Shown in pieces: positions 2,704-11,977 of a DNA stretch of 64,000 bases (position 1 is the first letter of the stretch; every line of letters starts with the position of its first letter). Made by a program: the position numbers and the translations under genes. Source of the stretch: Escherichia coli (GTDB lineage Bacteria > Pseudomonadota > Gammaproteobacteria > Enterobacterales > Enterobacteriaceae); the NCBI RefSeq assembly GCF_003334405.1, contig NZ_QOWM01000004.1; one strand, written 5' to 3'. The notes under the pieces were generated by a model that saw nothing but the letters and a program-made list of their open reading frames with translations, was not told the origin of the DNA and searched no databases.

Positions 2704-4325
<1,622 letters not shown>

Positions 4326-4334
4326 TTTGCATCC

Positions 4335-4988
4335 TTAATCTGTCACTTCTCGCCATTCACCATTGGCAAGATTATCCAAAGAGTAATCACCCATCGCATA
4401 GCGAATCAGTCGCAGCGTGGGGAAGCCAACATGGGCGGTCATGCGGCGCACCTGGCGATTACGTCCTTCATATAAGGTGATCTTCAGCCAGCTGGTGGGA
4501 ATACTTTTGCGTTCACGAATTGGTGGATTCCGCGGCCATAACCACGCGGGTTCGTCAACCAGCTCCGCGCCGGCGGGCAGGGTAGGGCCATCATTTAAGG
4601 TTACGCCATTGCGCAAGGCTTCAAGTGCGTCTTGTGTGGGAATACCTTCCACCTGCACATAATAGATTTTTCCGGTGCGTTTACCCGGCTGGGTTAAACG
4701 CGCCTGCAACGCGCCGTTATTGGTCAGCACCAGCAACCCTTCGCTATCGCGGTCAAGGCGACCTGCTGCATAAACACCCTGAACCGGGATGAATTCTTTT
4801 AATGTTTTGCGTCCGGCTTCATCGGTGAACTGCGGAAGAACATCGTAGGGTTTATTGAACAGGATCACACGCGTGGGCTGGTTTTCAGGTTTACGCCTGG
4901 TAGAACGTTGCGAGCTGAATCGCTTAACCTGGTGATTTCTAAAAGAAGTTTTTTGCATGGTATTTTCAGAGATTATGAATTGCCGCAT
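4335..4988 (-). CDS. rluE: 23S rRNA pseudouridine synthase RluE
   Basis: ORF track 217 aa; RsuA/RluE family motif [13 protein letters not shown]. Confidence 0.9.
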
Positions 4989-8160: not shown

Positions 8161-8892
8161 TTAGGGGGCATGAAAGATGACTTTATAACCTTGCTCACCC
8201 CAGTGTTGTAAAAGTTCGTTTTGCCTTCTCGTTGGTGCCATGCCTGTCCAGACAATCAATGTTTGCGTCGGGAACAGTTCCGGGCGCGGCGATTCAATGG
8301 GATCAGCAAGAACAGAAATGTGCCATCCTGACAATGATAAACGCCATGCTTCCAGCCACAATCGTGCTCTCTCTTCAACATTCCACGCCATCAGAATGGC
8401 TTCTTTACCGGGCTTACGGCGCATTTCGAAAAGCGAGGTTGCTGCGTATTCAATTAATGCGCCGTCAAACATACTGCTCATAATGCGGGAGGTGTTGTGA
8501 TCAAGCACGAGACGCTGGCGAACAGGAAGGTAAACATGATTAATCAATTGATCTACTGGGTACTCTCGACCCAGTGAAATAATTCTCGCGCGTAGTTTGG
8601 CAGGATTAGCCATGCGAAGAATTGACATCATCTCTTCTTGCAGGCGGCTCCAGTCATCTTCCGTATCCTGGCTGGTGGTTTCCAGTAATGCTTTAACTTT
8701 GCCTACAGGGACGCCATTACTTATCCAACGCTTGATCTCTTCGATGCGTTGTATGTCTTCTTCATCAAAGAGTCGGTGTCCGCCTTCACTGCGCTGTGGT
8801 TTTAACAAACCGTAGCGGCGTTGCCAGGCCCGGAGAGTGACAGGATTAATCCCGCAACGTTCAGCAACATCACCAATGCTGTAATAAGCCAC
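8161..8892 (-). CDS. bluR: MerR-family repressor BluR (YcgE)
   Basis: ORF track 243 aa; N-terminal MerR helix-turn-helix [47 protein letters not shown]. Confidence 0.9.
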
Positions 8893-8942
8893 AATTCCTC
8901 CTTGCGGTCACAAATCTCCGTCGCCTGTACACGACCCAATAA

Positions 8943-8978
8943 TACTTTGTACAATATACGCTAAAATTGTACAAAGTA
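8943..8978. promoter_or_regulatory. Perfect 13-bp inverted repeat TACTTTGTACAAT-N10-ATTGTACAAAGTA upstream of bluR; candidate operator
   Basis: Read directly from sequence; lies 51-86 bp upstream of the bluR start codon; each arm contains the palindrome TTGTACAA. Confidence 0.35.
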
Positions 8979-9096
8979 TAAATAAGATTTCAGCTAAATT
9001 GGATGAAACATTATTTTTAATGTGGATTAAATTTAAACGTAACGTATTCATTTTTACGATGATTTACTGAAATCATGTGAAAGAATGTGCTGAAAA

Positions 9097-10308
9097 TTAT
9101 TTTTTCTCTGGCCACGCTATGGAAGGGATACCATTCAATTTAGCTTTAGCAAACAGATCTCCCTGAAACATCTCAATTCCTGCGGATTCAAGCCACATCC
9201 ACTCTTCTGGTGTTGCCACGCCCATAGCACTGACTTGAATTTCAAGTGATGTACAGCATTTTATGATCGCCTGAATAATTGCCTGCCGTGGCCCACTTTT
9301 ATGAACATTGGTAATCAATTCCTGACTGATTTTAATTCTGTCAGGCTGGAAGCGTGACAGGAGTAACAAACCAGCAAAACCTGCGCCAAAATGATCAATT
9401 GCTACACTGATACCAGCAGCCTTTAGCGATTTAATCGCTTCGGCAAACTCATCAAACCGAGATATGACTTCACTTTCAGTAAATTCAACGATGATTTGTT
9501 CAGGCACCAGAGCATTGGCCTTTATTTCATTAAGTAAAAAAGAGACTGCGTCAGGTTCGTTAACCAGGGTCATAGGTAATAGATTGATTGAAATCATTTT
9601 ATCACCGAGCTCAAGTGCGTGTGCCATCGTGAATGCAAGCGCCTTACTTTTGAGATCCGCTGTGTAGATTTCCCCGTCTTTACGCTGCCCAACCGCTATG
9701 GCTGATGGGCTATCTTCATTTTTTTGCACAATGGCTTCAAAAGCGATTATCCGCCGCGATAAGGGATCGACAATAGGATGAAAGGCAAAGTGGTCGTTTA
9801 TAGTTGGTGAAAGGGCACAGGAATCAAGTTCTTTATCAGATCCGTCAGCGATAAAAAGCCAGGAGTCTTCGGCAGGGATCTCGAAATAGGTTGATTGTTC
9901 GGTTGCAAGGACAAAAGTACGAAAAAATTGTAGCGCTCTGTCATCATAAGTTAGCTGAAATTTTGATGTGCCTTTGTCGAATACGGCCTGTAAAACGTCA
10001 TCTCGCTCGTGCAGGCGCAAATCAAATAATTCCATTCCCGCTTTGCCAAAACGGCGAGCAGGCGCGTAATCGCACAGCAGCTCAACAATATTATAGTGCC
10101 GTGGATCCTGGCATATAGCCCGATATATCATTTTAACCTGTTCTTCCGGACCTTCCAGAAGCTGGAAAAAATGAGAACCATTAAACAGTAAGATCCCTGT
10201 TACGTCAGACTGCATGTTCCTGCGATTTGCTATCGAAACCATTTCTTCGATTTTTTTGACAGGTTCGTCGTCACGTATATGGCTACGATAAATAAGGGTG
10301 GTAAGCAT
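9097..10308 (-). CDS. bluF: Blue-light sensing BLUF-EAL protein BluF (YcgF)
   Basis: ORF track 9097..10386; recognised start MLTTLIYRSHIRDDEP gives 403 aa; BLUF domain N-terminal, EAL-like domain C-terminal. Confidence 0.9.
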   Translation of the reverse strand: MLTTLIYRSHIRDDEPVKKIEEMVSIANRRNMQSDVTGILLFNGSHFFQLLEGPEEQVKMIYRAICQDPRHYNIVELLCDYAPARRFGKAGMELFDLRLHERDDVLQAVFDKGTSKFQLTYDDRALQFFRTFVLATEQSTYFEIPAEDSWLFIADGSDKELDSCALSPTINDHFAFHPIVDPLSRRIIAFEAIVQKNEDSPSAIAVGQRKDGEIYTADLKSKALAFTMAHALELGDKMISINLLPMTLVNEPDAVSFLLNEIKANALVPEQIIVEFTESEVISRFDEFAEAIKSLKAAGISVAIDHFGAGFAGLLLLSRFQPDRIKISQELITNVHKSGPRQAIIQAIIKCCTSLEIQVSAMGVATPEEWMWLESAGIEMFQGDLFAKAKLNGIPSIAWPEKK

Positions 10309-10539
10309 TAACAATCCAGGGTAATGGGTGAGGCGAGAGTAAGACGGTAACAGACATATCTTCTTGTGTCTTTCTTTTAATACCAAAACATAACCGTTTC
10401 TTTACATTGATAAAAAATGGAAAAAGTTGAACACTAGTTGGCGAAAAATCTTGTATAGATTGTCAGTTAAATGATGCAATATGTTTTATCATAACACATT
10501 GTTTTATATGCATTAGCACTAATTGCAAAAAATTAATTT

Positions 10540-10570
10540 ATCATTCTGTACACATATTTCGTACAATTTT
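10540..10570. promoter_or_regulatory. Candidate BluR operator / ycgZ promoter element
   Basis: TGTACA at 10547-10552 and GTACAAT at 10561-10567 in the bluF-ycgZ divergent intergenic region; same core motif as the palindrome upstream of bluR. Confidence 0.3.
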
Positions 10571-10621
10571 GCTATTGTTACTTCACTTAACATTGATTAA
10601 CATTTTTAACAGAGGCGTAGC

Positions 10622-11923: not shown

Positions 11924-11977
11924 ATATCAGGTGTCAAGAATGGAGAGTTCTCGCTCTCCATTCTTGACGCCTGATAT
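11924..11977 (+). repeat. 24-bp near-perfect inverted repeat (6-nt loop); possible terminator of the ycgZ-ymgABC transcript
   Basis: ATATCAGGTGTCAAGAATGGAGAG-ttctcg-CTCTCCATTCTTGACGCCTGATAT; arms match at 23/24 positions (one G-U wobble in RNA); about 95 bp after the ymgC stop. Confidence 0.5.

What the first reader, a model, noticed from the sequence alone, without database searches (positions are those of the whole stretch)
8943..8978. Perfect 13-bp palindromic pair upstream of the MerR-family repressor gene bluR
TACTTTGTACAAT-N10-ATTGTACAAAGTA lies 51-86 bp upstream of the bluR start codon, in the short bluF-bluR intergenic region. MerR-family proteins bind dyad-symmetric operators, so this is a candidate autoregulatory BluR site or a site for a paralogue such as MlrA. 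Each arm also contains the self-complementary core TTGTACAA.
Basis: partly seen in the sequence, partly recalled or inferred. Interest (0 to 1): 0.35.

Follow-up and report, generated by a model that had tools for sequence, protein, structure and literature searches.

The report
Likely self-repression site of bluR
The palindrome is real and sits on the mapped promoter of the E. coli blue-light repressor gene bluR; its two TGTACA boxes are conserved upstream of bluR-type genes across many enteric genera, so it is most likely an ordinary, so far undescribed operator through which BluR represses its own gene.

Summary
The perfect inverted repeat is 14+14 nt (8942-8955 / 8966-8979, 10-nt loop), 50-87 nt upstream of the bluR GTG. 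No such repeat appeared in 200 shuffles of the window.

It overlaps the bluR core promoter. The published transcription start (54 nt upstream of the start codon, about 8946) lies inside the proximal arm. A TTTATA-18-TATATT promoter fits that start.

The functional unit is a pair of TGTACA boxes, not the long arms. This is the core motif of the footprinted BluR operator at ycgZ and of the MlrA box at csgD.

In 65 of 68 BluR-type loci from about 17 genera, a TGTACA pair sits at the same distance from the gene. The step is 19 bp in 48 loci and 20 bp in E. coli. The spacer between the boxes is unconserved and A-rich. Enterobacter and Kosakonia carry the ycgZ-type N7 arrangement there instead. True mlrA genes of Enterobacteriaceae lack the pair.

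Best reading: a BluR-family operator giving negative autoregulation, relieved by BluF. Binding was not tested, and MlrA remains a rival. I found no report of bluR autoregulation.

This is a new member of a known kind, of modest interest.

The parts
8942..8979 (.). Perfect inverted repeat: 14-nt arms (8942-8955, 8966-8979) and a 10-nt spacer
   Evidence: None of 200 shuffles gave a repeat this long. A 58-bp stretch around it is 100% identical in 4558 of 4971 E. coli records.
8968..8973 (.). Distal TGTACA box, at -27..-22 relative to the mapped bluR transcription start (inside the promoter spacer)
   Evidence: Its position relative to the gene start is conserved in 65 of 68 BluR-type loci.
8948..8953 (.). 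Proximal TGTACA box, at -7..-2 relative to the transcription start; its first T is the last base of the -10 hexamer
8955..8960 (-). Degenerate box CGTATA, 13 bp from the distal box. TGTACA-N7-CGTATA resembles the ycgZ operator TGTACA-N7-CGTACA. It overlaps the -10 hexamer.
   Evidence: relaxed pair 8955/8968, step 13. Suggestive only.
8926..8931 (.). Third TGTACA box in the bluR 5' UTR (+15..+20), 22 bp from the proximal box. It is changed to TGTAGA in phylogroup B2 strain UM146.
8953..8958 (-). -10 hexamer TATATT of the bluR promoter
   Evidence: Promoter scan. It ends 7 nt before the published 5' end (PMC3509220).
8977..8982 (-). -35-like hexamer TTTATA, separated from the -10 by an 18-nt spacer
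8946..8946 (-). bluR transcription start. Primer extension placed it 54 nt upstream of the start codon; I converted that to window coordinates.
   Evidence: PMC3509220; GTG at 8892
8161..8892 (-). bluR (ycgE), a MerR_1 + MlrA_helical + MlrA_C repressor of 243 aa
9097..10308 (-). bluF (ycgF), the BLUF-EAL anti-repressor of BluR, upstream on the same strand and transcribed separately
   Evidence: PMC3509220
10547..10565 (+). Experimentally defined BluR operator in the ycgZ promoter, TGTACAcatatttCGTACA (13-bp step), used here as the reference site
   Evidence: DNase I footprint and mutagenesis in PMC3509220. TGTACA-N7-TGTACA is conserved in ycgZ promoters of most of the 37 syntenic loci examined.

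Best explanation
The dyad is a DNA operator of the BluR/MlrA family built into the bluR core promoter. Two palindromic TGTACA boxes, 20 bp centre to centre, bracket the -10 hexamer and the transcription start. A third box lies in the 5' UTR. BluR made from this gene binds the boxes, blocks RNA polymerase and so limits its own synthesis (negative autoregulation). BluF, which strips BluR from DNA in blue light and cold, would then derepress bluR together with ycgZ-ymgABC. That closes a feedback loop which resets the response.

Shown by tool results: the sequence, its statistical rarity, its overlap with a promoter, and the conservation of the box pair in front of bluR-type genes.

Taken from the literature: the transcription start, BluR recognition of GTACA boxes at ycgZ, and BluF action on BluR.

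Inferred: that BluR rather than a paralogue occupies this site, and that the effect is repression.
For: (1) A perfect 14+14 inverted repeat was never reached in 200 shuffles.

(2) The published 5' end of bluR mRNA is 54 nt upstream of the start codon, at 8946, inside the proximal arm (PMC3509220). An independent scan finds TTTATA-18-TATATT at 8982..8953 on the minus strand.

(3) BluR was footprinted on TGTACA-N7-CGTACA at ycgZ. Mutating those boxes abolishes binding and repression (PMC3509220; sequence).

(4) 65 of 68 BluR-type loci have a TGTACA pair 55-90 nt upstream of the gene. The step is 19 bp in 48, 13 in 9, 18 in 4, 20 in 3 and 16 in 1.

(5) Information content is near 2 bits in the box and low around it.

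(6) Enterobacter and Kosakonia carry the ycgZ-type N7 arrangement at the bluR promoter.

(7) Many ycgZ promoters carry box-N7-box-N13-TGTATA. So the 19-bp step also occurs in a BluR-controlled promoter.

(8) In the 8.7-kb loci, exact TGTACA pairs 20 bp or less apart occur only at the ycgZ and bluR promoters; the few other close pairs are 24-30 bp apart.

(9) The pair travels with the gene. Pantoea, Mixta and Erwinia homologues without bluF have it. These sit in the mlrA (yehV) genomic context next to yehW/yehX-like genes.

(10) Within E. coli the dyad is invariant while the bluF-proximal half of the spacer varies.
Against: No binding or expression data exist for this site. None was found in the searchable literature, and Tschowri 2009 could not be read.

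The E. coli step of 20 bp equals neither the footprinted BluR site (13 bp) nor the MlrA site (18 bp).

The dyad centre is at about -14.5, not in the -35/-10 spacer centre as for canonical MerR operators.

Three BluR-type loci (L013, L018, L049) lack the pair.

In most other genera the conserved -10-like TAnnnT lies 17 nt downstream of the proximal box. There the pair sits at -35 and upstream, a position also compatible with activation.

Related sequences are not independent samples.
Confidence: 0.6

Rival explanations
1. The site is bound by the paralogue MlrA, alone or in competition with BluR. This would link bluR expression to the sigma-S / c-di-GMP / curli module rather than to BluR itself.
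For: The MlrA box at csgD is TGTACA-N12-TGCACA (PMC3509220). This long two-box layout is closer to the bluR dyad (N14) than the BluR site at ycgZ (N7). BluR and MlrA cross-bind, since BluR shifts the csgD promoter (PMC3509220). The Pantoea/Mixta/Erwinia genes that carry the pair are positional orthologues of mlrA.
Against: The csgD boxes keep an 18-bp step in all 6 species where they are recognisable, with a degenerate distal box. The bluR-type pair has two perfect boxes and a 19-bp step in 48 of 65 loci. True MlrA genes (NCBIfam score 473, cut-off 417) have no such pair upstream. MlrA is known as an upstream activator, whereas this site covers the -10 and the start in E. coli.
Confidence: 0.17
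2. Another regulator that recognises TGTACA-like sequences binds here. The named candidate is the TetR-type RcdA (YbjK), whose palindromic site at its own gene contains TGTACA and which binds the neighbouring bluF-ycgZ spacer.
For: The RcdA box is TTGTnnACA. Its own-promoter site is TTGTGTACAttTGTACACAA. RcdA SELEX peaks include the ycgF-ycgZ and pinE-mcrA spacers, both in this window (PMC3535384).
Against: TTGTnnACA does not match anywhere near the bluR promoter. No SELEX clone or chip peak was reported for the ycgF-ycgE spacer, although the spacer 1.5 kb away was found. An RcdA site would not explain why the pair follows bluR-type genes across genera.
Confidence: 0.06
3. The palindrome acts as an RNA hairpin. 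It could be a terminator or stabiliser at the 3' end of bluF read-through transcripts. It could also be a 5' leader structure of a longer bluR transcript, for example one starting at the sigma-54 site inside bluF.
For: As RNA it forms a 14-bp stem. The free energy is -17.6 kcal/mol, z = -3.3 against shuffles. It lies 118-155 nt downstream of the bluF stop. A published sigma-54 binding site at 9373-9389 points toward it.
Against: The scan found no terminator-like site; the stem has only 3 G-C pairs per 14 and no U-tract follows. There is no Rfam match. The mapped bluR start lies inside the proximal arm, so bluR mRNA lacks the hairpin. Across 50 distinct homologous sites the flanks show no compensatory changes beyond base composition. 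The spacer is strand-asymmetric, with 55% A and 5% C. The arms shrink to 7-9 nt in most genera while the boxes stay perfect.
Confidence: 0.05
4. The boxes are only promoter elements (TTGTAC as a -35 hexamer with an A-rich UP-like spacer) and no dedicated regulator binds them. The palindrome would be a by-product.
For: In most genera TTGTAC lies exactly 17 nt upstream of a conserved TAnnnT, and the inter-box spacer is A-rich.
Against: This does not explain the perfectly conserved distal TGTACA at a fixed 19-bp step. It also does not explain the same boxes at ycgZ promoters, where BluR binding is proven. In E. coli the mapped promoter does not use TTGTAC as its -35.
Confidence: 0.05

Closest known systems
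BluR (YcgE) operator in the ycgZ promoter (Tschowri, Lindenberg, Hengge 2012, PMC3509220)
   Same: It has the same TGTACA/GTACA core. The boxes are self-complementary, so they read as either direct or inverted repeats. It overlaps a core promoter, lies in the same gene cluster and is conserved in the same genomes.
   Different: The step is 13 bp (N7) at ycgZ and 20 bp (N14) at bluR in E. coli. The ycgZ site covers the -35 and spacer, whereas the bluR site brackets the -10 and the start. The ycgZ promoter is sigma-S dependent and the bluR promoter sigma-70 dependent. Only the ycgZ site has binding data.
MlrA box upstream of csgD (Ogasawara et al. 2010, as quoted in PMC3509220 and PMC9662190)
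   Same: It is a long two-box palindrome of the form TTGTACA-N-TGTACAA with AT-rich flanks, bound by the closest paralogue of BluR.
   Different: The step is 18 bp, conserved in 6 species, with a degenerate distal box. It lies more than 100 bp upstream of the csgD promoter and mediates activation.
Canonical MerR-family operators (merT, zntA, copA, soxS promoters)
   Same: The DNA-binding domain is of the MerR type, the DNA target is dyad-symmetric, and the promoter spacer is longer than 17 bp (18 bp).
   Different: Canonical sites are about 18-22-bp dyads centred in a 19-20-bp spacer, and they switch from repression to activation. Here the half-sites are two helical turns apart, the centre is at about -14.5 and the arms reach +5. 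BluR is reported to be a repressor only.
CarH/LitR/CarA light-dependent repressors and their multi-repeat operators
   Same: By sequence, the closest solved DNA-binding domains to BluR are LitR (3whp), CarH (5c8d/e/f) and CarA (2jml) (NCBIfam CarH hit). Like BluR these are light-pathway repressors with a MerR-type head and a different C-terminal module, antagonised by light or by an anti-repressor (CarS; discussed in PMC3509220).
   Different: CarH uses B12 and binds tandem 11-bp direct repeats as a tetramer (from my own knowledge, not tested here). BluR has MlrA_helical and MlrA_C domains instead. Its oligomeric state on DNA is unknown.
Negative autoregulation of bacterial repressors in general
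   Same: The operator overlaps the regulator's own promoter. This is the commonest network motif in E. coli.
   Different: Nothing unusual. The only twist is that the anti-repressor BluF would make the loop responsive to light and temperature.

Membership tests
BluR/MlrA-family operator (TGTACA-box site) | Two or more copies of the GTACA/TGTACA core | tested here: met
   Exact TGTACA at 8968, 8948 and 8926. The same core occurs at the footprinted ycgZ site and at the csgD MlrA box.
BluR/MlrA-family operator (TGTACA-box site) | Box spacing equal to an experimentally bound site (13-bp step for BluR at ycgZ, 18-bp step for MlrA at csgD) | tested here: not met
   The E. coli step is 20 bp. Homologous sites are mostly 19 bp, with 13 bp in Enterobacter/Kosakonia and 18 bp in 4 loci. 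A degenerate CGTATA box lies 13 bp from the distal box.
BluR/MlrA-family operator (TGTACA-box site) | Conserved in front of orthologous target genes while the surrounding sequence diverges | tested here: met
   65 of 68 loci carry it. Information content is near 2 bits in the box and low elsewhere. The spacer sequence is not conserved.
BluR/MlrA-family operator (TGTACA-box site) | Overlap with the regulated promoter, as required for a repressor | tested here: met
   The transcription start at 8946 comes from PMC3509220. The -10 TATATT and -35 TTTATA were found by scan. The boxes lie at -27..-22 and -7..-2.
BluR/MlrA-family operator (TGTACA-box site) | Specific binding by the purified protein and loss of regulation when the boxes are mutated | not testable with these tools
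   This needs EMSA or footprinting and reporter fusions. No published data were found.
Canonical MerR-type activator operator | Dyad of about 18-22 bp centred within a 19-20-bp spacer between the -35 and -10 | tested here: not met
   The dyad spans 38 bp, from -33 to +5 relative to the start. Its centre is at about -14.5 and the spacer is 18 bp.
Intrinsic (Rho-independent) terminator of bluF | G+C-rich stem followed by a U-tract | tested here: not met
   The scan found no terminator-like site. The stem has 3 G-C pairs in 14 and is followed by UAUUGGG.
Structured RNA element | Compensatory base changes that keep the pairing across homologues, or a match to a known RNA family | tested here: not met
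   There is no covariation beyond base composition, except flank position 2 at p = 0.03, uncorrected. There is no Rfam match at E-value 1 or below.
RcdA box | TTGTnnACA unit | tested here: not met
   There is no match within the bluF-bluR spacer. The 6 matches in the window all lie elsewhere.

The most novel reading that the evidence does not exclude
The TGTACA pair may be the ancestral self-operator of the whole MlrA/BluR lineage. It is present at the mlrA-locus gene of Pantoea, Mixta and Erwinia. It was inherited by bluR when the gene duplicated, and it was lost from the fast-diverging mlrA of Enterobacteriaceae. The palindromic boxes tolerate steps of 13, 16, 18, 19 and 20 bp. This suggests that BluR-type proteins do not bind like rigid MerR dimers. 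Their heads may instead dock independently on single boxes, as in CarH-like oligomers. E. coli has additionally moved its bluR promoter. In most genera the operator sits at the -35 and upstream, whereas in E. coli it straddles the -10 and the start.
Probability: 0.3. Interest if true: 0.5.

Novelty: new member of a known kind. Interest (0 to 1): 0.35.

Why it matters
BluR-BluF is the only characterised blue-light pathway of E. coli. It feeds into Rcs signalling, curli, colanic acid and OmpF control. A self-operator would add a feedback loop to that circuit: light and cold release BluR from its own promoter, more BluR is made, and the response is capped and reset. It would also give a second natural BluR site with a different geometry. 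That helps define what BluR and MlrA actually recognise, and it gives a motif (TGTACA pairs at 13 and 18-20 bp steps) for finding further targets. The comparative data also put the proposed mlrA-to-bluR duplication on firmer ground. None of this is surprising in kind, because negative autoregulation of a repressor is the commonest bacterial network motif.

Tried and rejected
1. Terminator or RNA element. The scan found no terminator and there was no Rfam hit. The hairpin is stable, but the flanks do not covary across 50 distinct homologous sites. Rejected as the main explanation.

2. RcdA. The published box TTGTnnACA does not occur here, and no SELEX peak was reported for this spacer.

3. Compensatory evolution of the long arms. 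The 14-nt arms are specific to E. coli, and only the TTGTACAA cores are general.

4. Literature search for BluR autoregulation and for SELEX, ChIP or DAP data on BluR and MlrA. Nothing bears on this site. The word 'blur' is too generic for full-text search. Tschowri et al. 2009 (PMC2648647), which used ycgE::lacZ fusions, is not held. PPTP-seq lost its bluR guide.

5. Discrimination between MlrA and BluR by spacing. The csgD boxes keep an 18-bp step in 6 species, against 19 bp at bluR-type promoters. This is suggestive but not decisive, because E. coli has 20 bp.

Full report
**Observation.** The window reads TACTTTGTACAAT-ATACGCTAAA-ATTGTACAAAGTA at 8943-8978. The perfect complementarity extends one base further on each side, giving 14-nt arms at 8942-8955 and 8966-8979 with a 10-nt spacer. 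None of 200 dinucleotide-preserving shuffles of the 64-kb window contained a perfect inverted repeat with arms of 14 nt or more and a loop of 30 nt or less; 13-nt arms occurred in 2.5% of shuffles.

The ORF 8161..8892 (minus strand, GTG start, 243 aa) is bluR. The ORF ending at 9097 is bluF. ycgZ-ymgA-ariR follow divergently from 10622. BluR carries MerR_1, MlrA_helical and MlrA_C domains. The locus is E. coli K-12-like: the 301-bp query matches 4972 of 5426 complete E. coli genomes. In K-12 coordinates the dyad is 1214109-1214146 (offset taken).

**Position relative to the promoter.** Tschowri et al. 2012 mapped the bluR 5' end by primer extension to 54 nt upstream of the start codon. They showed that bluR, bluF and ycgZ have separate starts and that bluR is transcribed by sigma-70 polymerase (PMC3509220). 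Counted from the GTG at 8892, this start is at 8946, inside the proximal arm.

An independent consensus scan finds TTTATA-18 nt-TATATT on the minus strand at 8982..8953. The -10 hexamer ends 7 nt before that start. The dyad therefore spans about -33 to +5. The distal TGTACA lies in the promoter spacer (-27..-22). The proximal TGTACA abuts the -10 and reaches -2. A third TGTACA (8926-8931) lies at +15..+20. A protein bound here would exclude RNA polymerase.

**Relation to known sites.** The same paper footprinted BluR on the ycgZ promoter. It described GTACA...GTACA overlapping TGTAC...GTACA, covering the -35 and spacer. Point mutations there abolished binding and repression. In the window this site is TGTACAcatatttCGTACA at 10547-10565, a 13-bp step. 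The MlrA box at csgD is TGTACA-N12-TGCACA, an 18-bp step, which I confirmed in the K-12 sequence. The bluR dyad has the same core but a 20-bp step.

Inside its spacer, CGTATA (8960..8955, minus strand) lies 13 bp from the distal box. This gives TGTACA-N7-CGTATA, one mismatch from the ycgZ layout. I treat that only as a hint, because it also overlaps the -10 hexamer.

**Comparative evidence.** A profile of 15 BluR homologues retrieved 80 loci from one-genome-per-species contigs. Thirty-nine of them keep the ycgZ / bluF-bluR synteny. Among the 68 BluR-type loci, 65 have a pair of TGTACA boxes (at most one mismatch, in one box) 55-90 nt upstream of the gene start. The step is 19 bp in 48 loci, 13 in 9, 18 in 4, 20 in 3 and 16 in 1.

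The boxes are almost invariant, with information content near 2 bits. The spacer is not conserved in sequence but is A-rich on the coding strand: 55% A, 28% T, 5% C. In these 8.7-kb loci, exact TGTACA pairs 20 bp or less apart occur only at the ycgZ promoter (step 13-14, with single cases of 9 and 20) and at the bluR promoter. The few other close pairs are 24-30 bp apart.

Enterobacter species and Kosakonia carry TATACA/TGTACA-N7-TGTACA at the bluR promoter, which is the ycgZ operator geometry. Conversely, roughly 20 of the 37 ycgZ promoters continue box-N7-box with N13-TGTATA. So the 19-bp step also occurs in a promoter known to be BluR-controlled in E. coli. Three loci (L013, L018, L049) lack the pair.

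**Evolutionary context.** Homologues in Pantoea, Mixta, Erwinia and Winslowiella have no bluF nearby, yet they carry a near-perfect TCAAGT-TGTACA-N13-TGTACA-ACTT element. Many of them are followed by convergent yehW/yehX-like ABC genes at the same offset as the true mlrA genes of Enterobacter, Lelliottia, Cedecea and Buttiauxella. They are therefore positional orthologues of mlrA (yehV).

By sequence, however, they are closer to BluR (60-68% identity) than to MlrA (51-53%). They also score below the NCBIfam MlrA cut-off (302-312 against 417; true MlrA scores 473, BluR 268). True mlrA loci have no TGTACA pair.

The simplest reading is that the pair is an ancestral self-associated element. bluR kept it after duplication, and Enterobacteriaceae mlrA lost it. 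That the element follows the gene through a duplication and a change of neighbours is my main argument that the gene's own product binds it.

**Promoter geometry differs in E. coli.** I anchored the loci on the proximal box. In both the syntenic and the bluF-less groups, a conserved TAnnnT (TAGTTT or TAAGGT) then lies exactly 17 nt after TTGTAC. In most genera the proximal box therefore probably doubles as the -35 hexamer, just as box 1 of the ycgZ operator overlaps the ycgZ -35. E. coli has its third TGTACA at that position instead. It uses a -10 (TATATT) created inside a spacer that is one base longer than in Citrobacter. This promoter shift is an inference, because no starts have been mapped in the other genera.

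**Within-species variation.** A 58-bp stretch around the dyad is 100% identical in 4558 of 4971 E. coli records. The 301-bp region is at least 99% identical in only 2902 of 4974 records and 90-95% identical in 538. In an alignment of five divergent strains, all substitutions but four fall in the bluF-proximal half of the spacer. The only change within the dyad is a spacer G to A in UM146. One strain has IS1 inserted in the dyad.

**Rivals.**
- An RNA hairpin forms readily, with a free energy of -17.6 kcal/mol and z = -3.3. But there is no terminator signature, no Rfam match and no compensatory variation in the flanks, and the bluR mRNA starts inside it.
- RcdA binds the adjacent bluF-ycgZ spacer, and its own operator contains TGTACA (PMC3535384). 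But its box TTGTnnACA is absent here and no SELEX peak was reported for this spacer.
- MlrA is the serious rival. Its csgD box is the closest in layout. That box keeps an 18-bp step and a degenerate distal box in E. coli, Salmonella, Enterobacter, Citrobacter, Cedecea and Trabulsiella. The bluR-type pair is 19 bp with two perfect boxes. This favours a distinct site class but does not exclude cross-binding.

**Mechanistic note.** The boxes are 6-bp palindromes, and the tolerated steps (13, 16, 18, 19 and 20 bp) correspond to very different helical phases. That is hard to reconcile with a rigid MerR-type dimer. By sequence, the closest solved DNA-binding domains are LitR and CarH. CarH is known to place its heads on tandem repeats as a tetramer; this is from my own knowledge and was not tested here. 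I offer independent docking of BluR heads on single boxes as a lead only.

**Verdict.** I found no published description of bluR autoregulation, although the key 2009 paper could not be read. This is a new, probably autoregulatory, member of a known kind of site. It is useful to people working on this circuit and is not surprising. I put the confidence that it is a BluR/MlrA-family operator at about 0.85, and the confidence that BluR itself binds and represses at about 0.6.

Noticed in passing
window 9373-9389 (- strand), inside bluF: Exact match to the sigma-54 motif TTGGCGCAGGTTTTGCT. Bonocora et al. 2015 list it as intragenic ChIP-seq site IS13, pointing toward bluR about 480 nt upstream of its start. 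A transcript from it would contain the whole palindrome.
   Followed up: partly
L082 (E. coli 2022CK-00450, NZ_CP104681.1), equivalent to window ~8965: An IS1A element is inserted within the dyad. It separates the distal box and the -35 hexamer from the bluR gene. This is a natural promoter/operator disruption mutant.
   Followed up: no
window 8926-8931: A third TGTACA box lies in the bluR 5' UTR, 22 bp from the proximal box. It is TGTAGA in B2 strain UM146. Several other genera also have extra (C/T)GTACA boxes between the pair and the start codon (L026, L031, L040, L055, L057, L058).
   Followed up: partly
ycgZ promoters of L008, L009, L013, L035, L040, L054, L057, L059, L063 and others: Many ycgZ promoters have three boxes, TGTACA-N7-TGTACA-N13-TGTATA, with the last overlapping the -10 region. 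E. coli and Citrobacter have only the first two. The BluR operator may be larger in most genera than the one footprinted in E. coli.
   Followed up: partly
L010, L012, L014, L016, L017, L019-L022, L024, L027-L030, L032, L034, L050, L053 (gene at 4001-4740 in most of these loci): Pantoea/Mixta/Erwinia 'BluR-like' genes sit in the mlrA (yehV) context, next to yehW/yehX-like ABC genes. Yet they are closer in sequence to BluR than to Enterobacteriaceae MlrA, and they fall below the NCBIfam MlrA cut-off. Enterobacteriaceae MlrA looks like the fast-evolving copy.
   Followed up: partly
L010 ~3875-3895 and the same position in most Pantoea/Erwinia loci: A conserved palindrome ATCTCATATATGAGAT lies about 45 bp upstream of the TGTACA pair, in the divergent spacer shared with a PuuR-like XRE-cupin regulator gene and a GNAT gene. 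It is probably that regulator's operator.
   Followed up: no
window 10387-10621 (bluF-ycgZ spacer) and the pinE-mcrA spacer of e14 near the start of the window: Both spacers are published genomic-SELEX targets of the TetR-type regulator RcdA (PMC3535384). RcdA and BluR appear to bind overlapping TGTACA-containing DNA at the ycgZ promoter.
   Followed up: no
window 11933-11968: Perfect 15-nt-arm inverted repeat (GTGTCAAGAATGGAG...CTCCATTCTTGACAC, 6-nt loop) about 100 nt downstream of ymgC, without a following T-run. It may mark the 3' end of the ycgZ-ymgABC operon.
   Followed up: no
window 51470-51495: Perfect 26-bp palindrome AAAATCCACGCAATTGCGTGGATTTT, flanked by an A-run and a T-run. It looks like an ordinary bidirectional intrinsic terminator.
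   Followed up: no
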